Source: a virus
Lineage: Duplodnaviria; Heunggongvirae; Uroviricota; Caudoviricetes
Strand: one strand, 5' to 3'
Virus record (IMG/VR): IMGVR_UViG_3300029241_000103
Coordinates: 1 to 4,074 of that record
DNA: 4,074 bases
Part shown: one piece after another, positions 1-1,477 of the stretch
How positions within the stretch are numbered: position 1 is the first letter of the stretch
How the letters are laid out: every line of letters begins with the position of its first letter
Made by a program: the position numbers and the translations under genes
The notes under the pieces: model-generated
What the model saw: only the letters and a program-made list of their open reading frames with translations
What the model was told of the DNA's origin: nothing
Database searches by the model: none

Positions 1-170
1 TGATGCCTGAAAAAACTGGTGTTTACTGGAATTCTCGGTTTAGCATTGCTCCTATGCTCGATAGGATGTACCGTTTTTGAAAAACAAGTAGTTATACACT
101 TTGTGGGAGCCTATTGGGAACCCGGTGTTTTCATTTCAAGGTGTAATCCATGCGGGGCATCAGAATGAGA

Positions 171-176
171 TATAAT
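171..176 (+). promoter_or_regulatory. Candidate sigma70 -10 hexamer (TATAAT) upstream of the 206..742 ORF
   Basis: Exact consensus TATAAT at 171-176, about 30 nt upstream of the ATG at 206. No good -35 is found at 16-18 bp spacing and there is no TG extension, so this is a -10 match only. Confidence 0.3.
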
Positions 177-205
177 GAGATTTTTAGTGTTCCGCTTGAG
201 AGTCT

Positions 206-742
206 ATGATGCTTACCCTAGACGAGATAGGTCAATCTGTACGTAACAATATCCAGTTGATTATTGATCATGTCGGCTTACCTCTTGCTGTTGGTCCGCT
301 CAGTGATGATGATTACAAGATTCTGTGTGGTGGCTATGGTGAGCTTGAATGGGACTATGCGTTAAGCACCTATGGCAACTCCAGAGAAAAGTATGAGTTC
401 TGCATAAAACTTGTTCAGCAAGGTCGGGTTCAGGGAATACCATCAGGAGCAGCAATTTGTGTTTATGGGGTTGAAGAAAACATCTTTCGTATCCATATGA
501 TCGAAAGGTTTTCTAGAGAAGATGAATCTCACCCATTGAAAGGGCGCATGGTTTTACTCACTCTTATGAGTGCTTTTATATTTTGTAAAGCTGTTGAATG
601 TAAAGTTGTCCACATTGTAGAGCCAGTACCAGAACTGGTGCAGTATTACGAGTCTTTTGGTTTCCGCATGGAACAGTGCGGTTATGTGATGTCTGCAGTC
701 ATTGATGAGCTGCAGGATATCTTTCTTAAATTTGCTCAGTAG
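206..742 (+). CDS. Hypothetical protein, 178 aa, with a GNAT-like C-terminal motif (possible divergent acyl/acetyltransferase fold)
   Basis: Uninterrupted ORF ending at TAG 740-742. A weak SD (GAGAG, 198-202) precedes tandem ATGs at 206 and 209; the spacing favours 209. The segment PELVQYYESFGF resembles GNAT motif B (A-x-x-x-Y-E-x-x-G-F), and the predicted strand/helix order fits a GNAT fold. The glycine-rich motif A (R/Q-x-x-G-x-G/A) is not clearly present (HPLKGRMVLL). Looks AT-richer than the phage genes by eye. Confidence 0.55.
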   Translation: MMLTLDEIGQSVRNNIQLIIDHVGLPLAVGPLSDDDYKILCGGYGELEWDYALSTYGNSREKYEFCIKLVQQGRVQGIPSGAAICVYGVEENIFRIHMIERFSREDESHPLKGRMVLLTLMSAFIFCKAVECKVVHIVEPVPELVQYYESFGFRMEQCGYVMSAVIDELQDIFLKFAQ

Positions 743-759
743 GTATAGACGAGAAGGGT

Positions 760-772
760 CTACAAATTGTAG
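760..772. promoter_or_regulatory. 13-bp palindrome CTACAAATTGTAG (6-bp arms, 1-nt centre), candidate protein-binding site
   Basis: Read directly: CTACAA (760-765), A, TTGTAG (767-772) is a perfect inverted repeat. It overlaps a 5-bp stem hairpin TAGAC-N7-GTCTA (746-762) just after the stop of the 206..742 ORF. Confidence 0.3.
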
Positions 773-847
773 GATACCCGTCCAGATTACCTTAAAGGTA
801 CATCTATGGCAGTCGTTTTGTGCTTAAACTACTAAGAAACGATGTCA

Positions 848-894
848 CCAATCGACATGATCGATTGGCATAAGTTAGCTAAACAAGCTAGCTT
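848..894 (+). promoter_or_regulatory. Candidate operator and promoter upstream of the small ORF
   Basis: Inverted repeat CCAATCGA-N5-TCGATTGG (848-868) overlaps a -35-like TTGGCA (865-870). After an 18-nt spacer comes a -10-like TAGCTT (889-894). The palindrome AGCTAGCT (886-893) lies in the spacer and -10 region. Confidence 0.3.
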
Positions 895-938
895 TAAAGA
901 GAGGGTTAGAGACGCCTTTACTGTCTCGGGAGTTTTCT

Positions 939-1112
939 ATGAAAGATCAAAAAGCAACCAAGCCACAGGTTAAGTTCGACACAATGAAAGCATTCGCAGG
1001 TATGGGTGCTGCTGTTGAAGTTCTGATGAAGGCTGCTCCTAATGCGTTCACTCACGCTACTGTCTCTGGTAAAGAGCAGCAGGGTAAGCTTCGTCGTCGC
1101 AAAGCAGCATGA
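939..1112 (+). CDS. Small hypothetical protein, 57 aa (MKDQKATKPQVKFDTMKAFAGMGAAVEVLMKAAPNAFTHATVSGKEQQGKLRRRKAA), basic C-terminal tail
   Basis: Not in the supplied ORF track (presumably below its length cutoff); translated by hand. ATG at 939 follows SD GGGAG (928-932) with a 6-nt spacer. Stop is TGA at 1110-1112. Codon choice is typical of well-expressed enterobacterial genes (GGT, GCT, CGT, GTT, CTG, AAA, GAA). An intrinsic terminator follows 23 nt downstream. Confidence 0.5.
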   Translation: MKDQKATKPQVKFDTMKAFAGMGAAVEVLMKAAPNAFTHATVSGKEQQGKLRRRKAA

Positions 1113-1131
1113 TCATAGCTGGTGCTTTTTG

Positions 1132-1160
1132 AAAACCCGCCTTTAGGCGGGTTTTTTCTT
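1132..1160. terminator. Rho-independent (intrinsic) terminator, probably bidirectional, between convergent genes
   Basis: Stem CCCGCC (1136-1141), loop TTTA, stem GGCGGG (1146-1151), then TTTTTT (1152-1157) on the plus strand. AAAA (1132-1135) precedes the stem, so the minus strand reads hairpin then TTTTC. The minus-strand gene's stop (TAA, 1160-1162) sits immediately upstream of the hairpin in that orientation. Confidence 0.8.
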
Positions 1161-1441
1161 TAGTGATGTTCTTTGCCCTTCTGTTTGCTTGTTCTGACCT
1201 GTTCCCACTCGATACGTCCTTCTTCTCGTCTTTTGTCTATGTATTCCGCAAGATCCTGAATATTGATGCAACGTTTTGCTTTTTGTGATGTGCCGATGCG
1301 ATATGTTGGAACGGGCAACTTACAAGCGTTTGCTTTTGCTTCTGCCGTGGCTGGACTCATGCCAAAGTACTTTTGGCTAACTGCTGAGAGTTCAATGTTA
1401 GGGGTATTGAATTCAGCCATCAGTAAAAACAAGGTGTTCAT
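1160..1441 (-). CDS. PrtN-family / excisionase-like small DNA-binding protein (about 93 aa)
   Basis: The N-terminus MNTLFLLMAEF... and the segment ...KLPVPTYRIGTSQKAKRCINIQDLAEYID match, from memory, the conserved pattern of PrtN (pyocin activator) / phage Xis-like proteins. Start chosen as ATG at 1441, preceded by GGAG with a 6-nt spacer. The longer GTG-initiated reading to 1468 was not used. Confidence 0.65.
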   Translation of the reverse strand: MNTLFLLMAEFNTPNIELSAVSQKYFGMSPATAEAKANACKLPVPTYRIGTSQKAKRCINIQDLAEYIDKRREEGRIEWEQVRTSKQKGKEHH

Positions 1442-1477
1442 AATTTTCTCCATCAAAACCGGCTGCACCCGGGAAAA

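What the first reader, a model, noticed from the sequence alone, without database searches (positions are those of the whole stretch)
939..1112. Unlisted 57-aa ORF with strong SD, efficient-looking codons and a basic KLRRRKAA tail
The ORF track omits this gene, but it has an ideal GGGAG-N6-ATG start, a codon profile typical of efficiently translated genes and a strong terminator immediately downstream. The hydrophobic central stretch and Arg/Lys-rich C-terminus suggest a small membrane-associated or nucleic-acid-binding protein. It could be a partner (regulator or antitoxin-like) of the upstream 178-aa protein, or an independent small effector.
Basis: seen in the sequence. Interest (0 to 1): 0.55.

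Follow-up and report, generated by a model that had tools for sequence, protein, structure and literature searches.

The report
Small partner protein of prophage acetyltransferase
The 57-codon reading frame is a real, conserved and probably well-expressed small basic protein that always accompanies an acidic acetyltransferase-like gene in a mobile two-gene prophage cassette; its function is untested, and it most likely acts as the enzyme's short-lived binding partner or inhibitor.

Summary
ORF 939-1112 has GGGAG-N6-ATG, a strong terminator (1131-1156) and much stronger codon bias than its neighbours (CAI 0.56 vs 0.28-0.39). It is a genuine gene: dN/dS is 0.07-0.3, variation is concentrated at third codon positions, and indels are all in frame.

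It is not unlisted. RefSeq annotates it as WP_000654815.1, phage mEp460 as gp24, and PHROGs as phrog_2741, all without a function. It occurs in 562 of 5426 complete E. coli genomes.

GNAT-less copies, where a Panacea toxin-antitoxin pair replaces the GNAT, show relaxed constraint (9 non-synonymous to 3 synonymous changes, against 3 to 9).

The small protein is one helix with disordered basic ends (pI about 10.5), has no membrane segment, and ends in a ClpXP-degron-like ...RRRKAA. The GNAT is acidic (pI about 4.8).

Best reading, confidence about 0.4: a labile, antitoxin-like inhibitor of the GNAT within a self-contained accessory cassette. A role as substrate or subunit is not excluded. No experimental data were found.

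The parts
171..176 (+). TATAAT, a -10-like element about 30 nt upstream of the GNAT gene. It is a candidate for the cassette's own promoter (P1).
   Evidence: A TAnAAT-type hexamer lies 30-40 nt upstream of the GNAT start in nearly all contexts examined, although the surrounding sequence is unrelated. Prediction only; no transcript data.
206..742 (+). 178-aa acidic GNAT-fold protein (RefSeq WP_000956557.1, which starts at 209; mEp460 gp23; phrog_4350).
746..775 (+). TAGACG-N18-TAGGAT, a promoter-like motif (P2) directly after the GNAT stop codon.
   Evidence: Both hexamers and the 16-18 nt spacing are kept in 17 of 21 distinct lineages while the spacer sequence varies. Shewanella has TTGATA-N16-TATAAT at the same place. 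The motif matches only 8 of 12 consensus positions, so the generic scan missed it. Not verified experimentally.
776..927 (+). Structured leader between the two genes, a chain of about five hairpins. Examples: TTACC..GGTAA; CCAATCGA..TCGATTGG; AGTTAGCT..AGCTAGCTT; GAGAC..GTCTC at 909-927, which abuts the SD.
   Evidence: MFE of the stretch 776-941, which also takes in the SD and the start codon, is -51.6 kcal/mol, z = -3.9. RNAalifold recovers three of the hairpins, with 4 pairs changed on both sides. One hairpin is kept with entirely different sequence in L005, L008 and L130. A covariance model finds it only in the close Enterobacteriaceae group, not in Serratia, Hafnia, Edwardsiella, Photorhabdus or Shewanella. 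No Rfam family matches.
928..932 (+). Shine-Dalgarno GGGAG, 6 nt before the ATG.
   Evidence: GGAG or GAGG lies 6-9 nt upstream of the ATG in all homologous loci. In the GNAT-less loci, homology with the window begins only about 12 nt before the ATG, so the SD and the ORF travel together.
939..1112 (+). The 57-aa small basic protein gene (WP_000654815.1; mEp460 gp24; phrog_2741).
   Evidence: dN/dS is 0.07-0.3, variable columns by codon position are 19/22/49, and indels are all in frame. The family has only 14 representative clusters among 1.84 billion proteins; the 12 short ones (54-77 aa) are stand-alone and two are partial matches inside long proteins. AF2 predicts a single helix at 15-32. 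pI is 10.5. 51 of 58 full-length members end in [AV]A-COOH after a basic run.
1131..1156 (+). Intrinsic terminator that closes the cassette.
   Evidence: A terminator hairpin occupies the same position in nearly every lineage examined, with different loop or stem sequences. The exceptions are Photorhabdus L097, where none is obvious, and ETEC H10407, where an insertion has displaced it.

Best explanation
The ORF encodes a genuine small protein, probably abundantly translated. It is the cognate partner of the GNAT-fold protein encoded about 200 nt upstream.

The two genes form a self-contained accessory cassette (a 'moron'). Its parts are: a promoter-like element, the GNAT gene, a second promoter-like element with a hairpin-rich leader, a strong SD, the small gene, and a terminator. 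Temperate phages of Enterobacterales and Shewanella carry the cassette in various non-essential slots.

The most likely mechanism is as follows. The basic small protein has one conserved helix flanked by disordered ends. It binds and neutralises or regulates the acidic acetyltransferase. It is kept short-lived by a C-terminal ClpXP-type degron (...RRRKAA-COOH). It is kept in excess by its own promoter, strong SD and optimal codons. This is a toxin-first, type II toxin-antitoxin-like or abortive-infection-like arrangement.

Shown: the gene is real, the pair is co-inherited, the charges are complementary, the upstream protein has a GNAT fold, and orphan copies are under relaxed constraint.

Inferred: physical binding, inhibition, proteolytic lability, toxicity of the GNAT, and any anti-phage role.
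For: (1) Coding. Purifying selection, dominance of third-position variation, and conserved SD, ATG and terminator.

(2) Partnership. All 162 loci with a GNAT-like gene have a family-HMM hit within 700 nt downstream. Of these, 87 were fetched from the GNAT side; two further lineages looked up from the GNAT side afterwards, Edwardsiella tarda and Brenneria, carry a family-type small gene too. The 358 E. coli genomes with the GNAT gene equal the 358 that carry the joined stretch.

(3) Mobility as a unit. The pair is found in these positions:
- between attP and xis;
- between the Q antiterminator and the holin;
- inside tail genes;
- next to portal and terminase;
- directly after a CI-like repressor;
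- in a Shewanella island.

(4) Orphan copies. Where a Panacea toxin-antitoxin pair has replaced the GNAT, distinct mutations are 9 non-synonymous to 3 synonymous (omega about 0.9). They hit invariant V26, L29, K50 and the terminal AA. Equally shallow GNAT-linked copies show 3 to 9 (omega about 0.1). Fisher p = 0.039, or p = 0.013 against all GNAT-linked copies.

(5) Charge complementarity in all 16 lineages. GNAT net charge is -5 to -18, small protein +6 to +9.

(6) Degron-like tail. 51 of 58 members end in [AV]A after a K/R run. This matches the ClpXP C-motifs tabulated in PMC9775585: SsrA LAA, MuA RRKKAI, YbaQ RAKKVA, PaaA HARKVA.

(7) Signs of high expression relative to the GNAT. CAI is 0.56 against 0.29, and there is a conserved promoter-like motif just upstream of the leader.

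(8) Not an obvious substrate. No Lys is invariant (K/R swaps occur) and the N-terminus is not conserved, which argues against an acetyl-acceptor role.

(9) Fold neighbours of the GNAT include the tRNA-acetylating toxins TacT, AtaT and KacT.

(10) Both genes remain intact in a decayed O157:H7 prophage remnant whose neighbouring genes are pseudogenes.
Against: - No experiment of any kind exists. No paper mentions either protein.
- The small protein is more conserved than the GNAT (79-91% against 66-72% identity in the same loci). This is unusual for an antitoxin.
- The GNAT is strongly acidic. The known GNAT toxins bind tRNA, so a tRNA target is unlikely and toxicity is unproven.
- The asymmetry 'small gene without GNAT, never GNAT without small gene' rests on what looks like one ancestral replacement event, since all GNAT-less copies share K2E and the same junction.
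- A 35%-identical GNAT homologue sits on a 3-kb Morganella plasmid with no small partner.
- The small protein has no DNA-binding domain, and the gene order and 196-nt spacer differ from canonical GNAT/RHH modules.
- The AF2 model of the small protein is of low confidence (pLDDT 63).
- The mutation counts are small, so the Fisher p values are modest.
Confidence: 0.4

Rival explanations
1. The small protein is an obligate subunit, targeting factor or substrate of a non-toxic GNAT. Together they form a two-component effector that modifies a host or rival-phage target, for example counter-defence by acetylation as with AcrVA5, or lysogenic conversion. Alternatively the GNAT acetylates the small basic protein to switch it on or off.
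For: - Strict co-inheritance, and decay of the small gene once the GNAT is lost, fit equally well.
- An acidic GNAT suggests a cationic substrate, and the partner is the nearest cationic protein.
- The top fold hits include protein N-terminal acetyltransferases: Naa20, NatD and RimI.
- The small protein is more conserved than the enzyme, as expected if it also contacts a conserved cellular target.
- Phage-borne GNATs with anti-defence roles exist (AcrVA5; listed).
Against: - No Lys is invariant; K31 and K50 are swapped for R in some lineages. The residue after the initiator Met varies (K, E, S, Q). So there is no conserved acceptor site.
- A degron-like end, a separate promoter and much stronger codon bias than the enzyme are not needed for a 1:1 subunit.
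- The slot is otherwise used for toxin-antitoxin cargo.
Confidence: 0.3
2. The small protein acts on its own, for example as a basic nucleic-acid-binding, ribosome-binding or regulatory protein of the prophage. On this view it merely sits next to the GNAT gene.
For: - About 200 E. coli genomes keep an intact copy without the GNAT, including ETEC H10407, where other cargo flanks it on both sides.
- It has its own SD, terminator and promoter-like element.
- It has a strongly basic tail and high codon adaptation.
Against: - Every GNAT locus carries the gene in at least six unrelated genomic positions. Chance adjacency does not explain this.
- GNAT-less copies show neutral-like substitution (omega about 0.9) at otherwise invariant residues.
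- Those copies appear to descend from one replacement event whose junction lies just before the SD.
Confidence: 0.12
3. The functional product is an RNA, with the coding frame incidental. It could be the structured leader and/or the terminator-proximal 3' end acting as an sRNA, an RNA antitoxin or a cis-regulator.
For: - The leader is significantly structured (z = -3.9), with some compensatory changes.
- The 20 nt between the stop codon and the terminator are well conserved.
- An sRNA (sRNA-17) has been reported elsewhere in mEp460-type prophages (PMC7719688).
Against: - Codon-position pattern, dN/dS of 0.07-0.3 and in-frame indels show selection on the protein.
- The leader model fails outside the close Enterobacteriaceae group while the protein is conserved.
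- GNAT-less loci keep the ORF but have lost the leader.
- No Rfam family reaches threshold.
- sRNA-17 does not map to this window.
Confidence: 0.03

Closest known systems
GNAT/RHH type II toxin-antitoxin modules (TacAT, AtaRT, KacAT, ItaRT)
   Same: - A GNAT-fold protein of about 160-180 aa is paired with a small adjacent gene on mobile DNA.
- TacT3, AtaT and KacT are among the best structural matches.
- In those systems a short helical segment of the antitoxin blocks the enzyme (PDB titles 6gtr and 7ak9). This is the role proposed here for the conserved helix.
- A labile partner is expected.
   Different: - The partner lies downstream, not upstream, and is separated by a 196-nt structured spacer with its own promoter-like motif.
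- It has no RHH/DUF1778 DNA-binding domain and no sequence similarity to known antitoxins.
- The GNAT is acidic (pI 4.8), which argues against a tRNA substrate.
- No Pfam GNAT model detects it.
- Toxicity is untested.
Prophage 'morons' and accessory-slot cargo, as in the lambda rexAB or Stx positions
   Same: - It is a self-contained unit with promoter-like elements and a terminator.
- It is inserted in different non-essential slots: after Q, after cI, at the att end, or within tail genes.
- It is interchangeable with toxin-antitoxin cargo at the same site.
   Different: 'Moron' is an architectural class, not a mechanism. Expression in the lysogen has not been shown for this cassette.
ClpXP substrates with C-terminal recognition motifs (SsrA tag, MuA, YbaQ)
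   Same: The family tails (RRRKAA, SRKVAA, MRKAAA, SRKAVA, KAKAA) resemble C-motif 1 (xAA) and C-motif 2 (RRKKAI, RAKKVA, HARKVA).
   Different: This is only a sequence resemblance. No degradation data exist, and a basic tail could equally bind the acidic GNAT or nucleic acid.
PHROG phrog_2741 / RefSeq WP_000654815.1 (and phrog_4350 / WP_000956557.1 for the GNAT)
   Same: The window's proteins are full-length members of these sequence families. They are identical to the RefSeq proteins.
   Different: These families carry no function or partner annotation.

Membership tests
PHROG phrog_2741 (phage protein family of unknown function) | Full-length match to the family profile. | tested here: met
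   E = 8.1e-36, residues 1-57 against profile positions 1-57 of 57.
Protein-coding gene, as opposed to a chance ORF | Purifying selection in this frame; conserved start, SD and stop; indels in multiples of three. | tested here: met
   dN/dS is 0.07-0.3. Variable columns by codon position are 19/22/49. Frame and SD are kept in every lineage examined.
GNAT/RHH type II toxin-antitoxin (TacAT/AtaRT/KacAT) | The toxin has a GNAT fold. | tested here: met
GNAT/RHH type II toxin-antitoxin (TacAT/AtaRT/KacAT) | The antitoxin has an RHH (DUF1778) DNA-binding domain and is encoded upstream of the toxin. | tested here: not met
   The small gene is downstream. It has no Pfam or NCBIfam hit. AF2 predicts a single helix.
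GNAT/RHH type II toxin-antitoxin (TacAT/AtaRT/KacAT) | The toxin acetylates aminoacyl-tRNA and arrests growth; the antitoxin rescues. | not testable with these tools
   This needs expression and biochemistry. The acidic pI of 4.3-5.5 across the family makes tRNA binding doubtful.
Type II toxin-antitoxin in general | The two genes are inherited as a unit. The neutraliser may occur alone, but the toxin does not. | tested here: inconclusive
   All 162 GNAT loci carry the small gene. About 200 E. coli genomes have the small gene without the GNAT. These appear to stem from a single replacement event. A 35%-identical homologue in Morganella stands alone.
Type II toxin-antitoxin in general | Proteolytically unstable antitoxin. 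| not testable with these tools
   There is only a degron-like C-terminus: 51 of 58 members end in [AV]A after a basic run, compared with the motifs in PMC9775585.
Type I toxin (small membrane peptide with a structured 5' UTR) | A transmembrane-length hydrophobic helix. | tested here: not met
   The longest uncharged run is 13 residues. The maximum KD(19) is 1.0. Net charge is +8.
Known anti-phage defence systems (PADLOC-DB v2) | Match to any component model. | tested here: not met
   No hits at E <= 1 for either protein.
Known RNA families (Rfam 15) | Match at the gathering threshold in 743-1160. | tested here: not met
   Only sub-threshold, terminator-driven hits were found, for example rnk_pseudo at 32 bits against a gathering score of 55.
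Prophage moron | An autonomous unit with its own promoter and terminator, found in variable positions among related phages. | tested here: inconclusive
   Variable position and the terminator are shown. The promoters are only conserved consensus-like motifs.

The most novel reading that the evidence does not exclude
The cassette is a previously undescribed toxin-first GNAT toxin-antitoxin or abortive-infection system. An acidic acetyltransferase acting on a cationic, non-tRNA target is held in check by an unrelated 57-aa ClpXP-labile peptide inhibitor that lacks any DNA-binding domain. The system is carried by about 7% of complete E. coli genomes, including O157:H7 and O145, and it moves between at least six prophage slots.
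Probability: 0.25. Interest if true: 0.65.

Novelty: new variant of a known kind. Interest (0 to 1): 0.45.

Why it matters
The gene itself is ordinary in one sense: it is already annotated as a hypothetical phage protein. This analysis adds three things: the protein is under selection, it is tied to a cryptic GNAT enzyme that sequence models miss, and the pair behaves as a mobile two-gene module in slots that usually hold defence or toxin-antitoxin cargo.

The small gene is in 562 of 5426 complete E. coli genomes and the full pair is in 358, including O157:H7 and O145 pathogens and phage mEp460. If the antitoxin-like reading is right, this would be a new architecture for GNAT toxin systems, with a non-tRNA target and a minimal peptide inhibitor. 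It can be tested with two plasmids and a clpX mutant.

Tried and rejected
- sRNA-17. This sRNA is reported in mEp460-type prophages of E. coli K1 (PMC7719688). Its sequence, from the paper's supplement, is not in the window, so it is a different locus.
- Sequence-family searches. Pfam, NCBIfam and PADLOC gave nothing for either protein. PDB sequence-profile searches gave only noise.
- Rfam gave only sub-threshold terminator hits.
- Exhaustive profile search with the small-protein alignment found only 14 representative clusters: 12 short proteins (54-77 aa) and two partial matches inside long proteins, with no fusion to or inclusion in a recognisable domain.
- The afdb50 fold library was unavailable. 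The viral fold library gave only generic GNATs.
- The AF2 model of the small protein is too weak (pLDDT 63) for a fold search.
- A covariance model of the leader did not reach distant lineages. I therefore dropped the idea that the leader is a family-wide third component, such as an RNA antitoxin.
- The 57-aa ORF after a 27%-identical GNAT on an Enterobacter kobei plasmid is not detectably homologous (hhalign probability 0.1%). It is analogous in position only.
- The membrane-protein reading was rejected.
- The overlapping 43-aa ORF (842-973) and the antisense ORFs were rejected. They have no family hits and poor codon usage, and the codon-position pattern fits only the 939 frame.
- Literature searches by accession numbers, peptide strings, and GNAT plus defence terms found no description of this cassette.

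Full report
**Where the window comes from.** The window is the left arm of a lambdoid prophage of the mEp460 type, integrated at dusA. It is 99.8% identical to many E. coli chromosomes and about 97.6% identical (78% of the window covered) to phage mEp460. In mEp460 the order is: integrase (-), attP, gp23 (the 178-aa gene, +), gp24 (the 57-aa gene, +), PrtN-type excisionase (-), 3'-5' exonuclease (-), a DUF551 gene (-), and so on. In chromosomes the pair follows a dusA fragment.

**Checking the observation.**
- The ORF runs 939-1112 (57 aa). GGGAG lies at 928-932, six bases before the ATG.
- The terminator at 1131-1156 has an 11-bp stem with 6 G-C pairs and a T-run. Its energy is -19.3 kcal/mol, z = -3.8.
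- Codon bias is real. CAI is 0.56 and Fop 0.74, against 0.28-0.39 and 0.47-0.56 for the seven other genes in the window. Only 28 of 5000 recodings of the same protein with the neighbours' codon usage reach this CAI. The w-values came from my memory of Sharp & Li 1987.
- 'Unlisted' is only a length-threshold effect. RefSeq annotates the ORF as WP_000654815.1, mEp460 as gp24, and PHROGs as phrog_2741, with a full-length match at E = 8e-36. All public names are 'hypothetical protein' or 'phage protein'.

**Is it a gene?** Homologues occur in E. coli, Salmonella, Enterobacter, Atlantibacter, Pseudescherichia, Franconibacter, Cronobacter, Hafnia, Serratia, Edwardsiella, Photorhabdus, Brenneria and Shewanella.
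- Among eleven diverged DNA sequences, Nei-Gojobori dN/dS is 0.07-0.3.
- Variable alignment columns by codon position number 19, 22 and 49.
- The only indels are whole codons.
- A GGAG or GAGG motif 6-9 nt upstream of the ATG, and a terminator hairpin downstream with differing loop or stem sequence, are present in nearly every lineage; the exceptions for the terminator are noted under the parts.

The ORF is therefore protein-coding and under purifying selection. The family is small. A search of 1.84 billion representative proteins with the family profile found 14 clusters; the 12 short ones (54-77 aa) are stand-alone proteins and two are partial matches inside long proteins.

**The protein.**
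- AF2 with the family alignment predicts one helix at residues 15-32, flanked by non-regular ends (pLDDT 63).
- The conserved core is F-D-T-x-x-A-F-x-x-M-G-A-A-V-E-x-L-x-K-A-A-P-x-x-F, followed by E-x-Q-G-[KR]-x-R and a basic tail.
- There is no membrane segment. The longest uncharged run is 13 residues and the maximum KD(19) is 1.0.
- Net charge is +8 and pI is 10.5.
- Of 58 full-length family members, 46 end in AA and 5 in VA, after a run averaging 4.1 K/R in the last eight residues.
- This matches the ClpXP C-terminal recognition motifs tabulated in PMC9775585: C-motif 1 is SsrA LAA, LldD NAA, RplJ EAA; C-motif 2 is MuA RRKKAI, YbaQ RAKKVA, PaaA HARKVA. This is a sequence resemblance only. 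Degradation has not been tested.

**The neighbour.**
- The 178-aa protein has no Pfam, NCBIfam or PADLOC hit.
- It folds confidently (pLDDT 92, pTM 0.89) into a GNAT acetyltransferase fold.
- Invariant residues include H97, E100, the loop H109-P-L-x-G113-x-M115 and Y148...G152-F153. By position these correspond to the beta4-alpha3 CoA-binding loop and the catalytic Tyr of GNATs. That correspondence is my inference from general GNAT knowledge.
- The protein is acidic in every lineage, with net charge -5 to -18 and pI 4.3-5.5.

**Partnership.** Every locus with a homologue of the 178-aa gene has a family-HMM hit to the small protein within 700 nt downstream: 162 of 162 loci. Of these, 87 were retrieved from the GNAT side and so are unbiased for the small gene. 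They comprise 34 distinct combinations. Two further lineages looked up from the GNAT side afterwards, Edwardsiella tarda and Brenneria, also carry a family-type small gene just downstream.

In complete E. coli genomes:
- the small gene is in 562 of 5426;
- the GNAT gene is in 358;
- exactly 358 carry the joined stretch.

The pair occupies unrelated positions:

| Position | Organisms |
|---|---|
| Between attP and xis | E. coli |
| Between the Q antiterminator and the holin | Hafnia, Serratia, Edwardsiella, others |
| After NinB, RusA and a 229-aa ORF that I read as Q-like (not checked against any family), with lepA just beyond | Franconibacter |
| Between tail genes | Photorhabdus |
| Beside portal and terminase | Edwardsiella tarda |
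| Directly after a CI-like repressor | Brenneria |
| In an island next to a DNA methylase | Shewanella |

The charges are complementary throughout. In a decayed O157:H7 prophage remnant both genes are intact, although the neighbouring exonuclease, methyltransferase and yfdR genes are pseudogenes.

**Orphan copies.** About 200 E. coli genomes have the small gene without the GNAT.
- There, a SocA/Panacea-domain protein (PF13274, E = 2e-19) plus a 139-aa ORF replace the GNAT and the leader.
- Homology with the window starts only about 12 nt before the ATG.
- ETEC H10407 also has a CoiA-like gene inserted downstream.
- All these copies share K2E, so they probably derive from one replacement event.

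| Class | Non-synonymous | Synonymous | Omega |
|---|---|---|---|
| GNAT-less copies | 9 | 3 | about 0.9 |
| GNAT-linked copies of similar shallowness | 3 | 9 | about 0.1 |

The non-synonymous changes in the orphan copies hit invariant V26, L29 and K50 and the terminal A56 and A57. Fisher p is 0.039, or 0.013 against all GNAT-linked mutations (25 to 46). The counts are small, but the direction fits loss of function once the GNAT is gone.

**Cassette anatomy.**
- A TAnAAT -10-like hexamer lies 30-40 nt upstream of the GNAT start in nearly all contexts (window 171-176).
- Directly after the GNAT stop, TAGACG-N16-18-TA[GC][GT]AT is kept in 17 of 21 lineages although the spacer varies (window 746-775). 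Shewanella has a near-consensus promoter in the same place.
- The 117-163 nt between this motif and the ATG form a chain of hairpins. In the window the MFE is -51.6 kcal/mol, z = -3.9.
- Three hairpins are recovered by RNAalifold, with some double changes. One is kept with entirely different sequence in several lineages.
- A covariance model of this leader finds only the close Enterobacteriaceae group. The leader is therefore not a family-wide element, and I treat it as regulatory or insulating rather than as a third component.
- All promoter statements are predictions.

**Mechanism.** The evidence establishes a real small protein that is functionally tied to a GNAT enzyme in a mobile accessory cassette. 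I favour an antitoxin-like reading: a labile inhibitor of the enzyme. The reasons are:
- a degron-like end;
- a separate promoter-like element, a strong SD and optimal codons, all of which would give an excess of a short-lived protein;
- no conserved Lys or N-terminal residue that could serve as an acetyl acceptor;
- a single conserved helix, as in the toxin-binding segments of GNAT antitoxins (PDB titles);
- interchange with a bona fide toxin-antitoxin family at the same site;
- the absence of any GNAT-only locus within the family.

Against this reading:
- the small protein is more conserved than the enzyme;
- the GNAT is acidic, so a tRNA target like that of TacT or AtaT is unlikely;
- the occurrence asymmetry rests on one event;
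- a 35%-identical homologue stands alone on a 3-kb Morganella plasmid;
- nothing has been tested experimentally.

The main rival is that the small protein is an obligate subunit or substrate of a non-toxic effector.

My estimates are: the gene is real, above 0.97; it is a functional partner of the GNAT, about 0.85; antitoxin-like inhibitor, about 0.4; subunit or substrate, about 0.3; independent function, about 0.12; RNA-only, about 0.03.

**Comparison with known systems and novelty.**
- The cassette resembles GNAT/RHH toxin-antitoxin modules in fold and pairing. It fails their defining antitoxin feature (an RHH domain encoded upstream), so it should not be filed as a member.
- It fits the architectural class of prophage morons.
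- No Pfam, NCBIfam, PADLOC or Rfam family covers it, and no paper found here does either.
- The ORF itself is already annotated. The new findings are the GNAT identity of its neighbour, the strict pairing and the relaxed-constraint result.
- I rate it a new variant of a known kind, of moderate interest.

Noticed in passing
window 1-205; L064 1-989; L183 1973-4347: The stretch between the dusA fragment and the excisionase gene is a cargo hotspot. Related E. coli prophages carry different cargo here: the GNAT gene; or a SocA/Panacea-domain protein plus a 139-aa ORF (a likely PanA-type toxin-antitoxin pair); or, in ETEC H10407, those two genes plus a CoiA-like gene inserted after the small gene.
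   Followed up: partly
window 746-927: A conserved promoter-like motif, TAGACG-N16-18-TAGGAT, is followed by a hairpin-rich leader of about 150 nt (z = -3.9) with no Rfam match. The hexamers are conserved as far as Serratia and Hafnia. The hairpins are conserved only within the close Enterobacteriaceae group.
   Followed up: partly
L089 2150-3109; L090 2051-3109: In Hafnia prophages a RelA_SpoT-domain gene of 319-352 aa sits immediately upstream of the GNAT/small-gene cassette, between Q and the holin. It may be a toxic small alarmone synthetase or a CapRel-like defence gene.
   Followed up: no
L100 5488-5769: The Serratia prophage that carries the cassette also encodes an Acb2/Tad1-hairpin (anti-CBASS/anti-Thoeris type) protein just after its lysis genes.
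   Followed up: no
L265 2492-3328; L264 (whole 3-kb plasmid): Two distant GNAT homologues were found on plasmids. On an Enterobacter kobei plasmid with phage-like genes, a 27%-identical homologue is followed by a basic 57-aa ORF and a terminator; the ORF is not homologous to this family. On a 3-kb Morganella plasmid, a 35%-identical homologue has no small partner.
   Followed up: partly
window 1160-1468 (- strand): The PrtN-type excisionase is annotated with two different starts: 102 aa in mEp460 and 93 aa in RefSeq PGAP.
   Followed up: no
outside the window (E. coli RS218 CP007149 4535226-4535418): A published 193-nt ArcA-regulated sRNA, sRNA-17, lies elsewhere in mEp460-type prophages (PMC7719688). 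That study removed 'hypothetical protein' genes before defining intergenic regions.
   Followed up: yes
L102 4040-5952: In O157:H7 strain G5295 the prophage at dusA is decayed. The exonuclease is truncated, a methyltransferase has an internal stop, yfdR is truncated and an IS1203 element is inserted. The GNAT gene, the small gene and the excisionase gene remain intact.
   Followed up: partly
window 1113-1130: The 18-20 nt between the stop codon and the terminator (atagctggtgctttttgaaa) are nearly invariant in loci whose proteins are only 79-91% identical. This may be a U-rich element upstream of the terminator, such as an Hfq- or RNase-related 3'-end feature.
   Followed up: no
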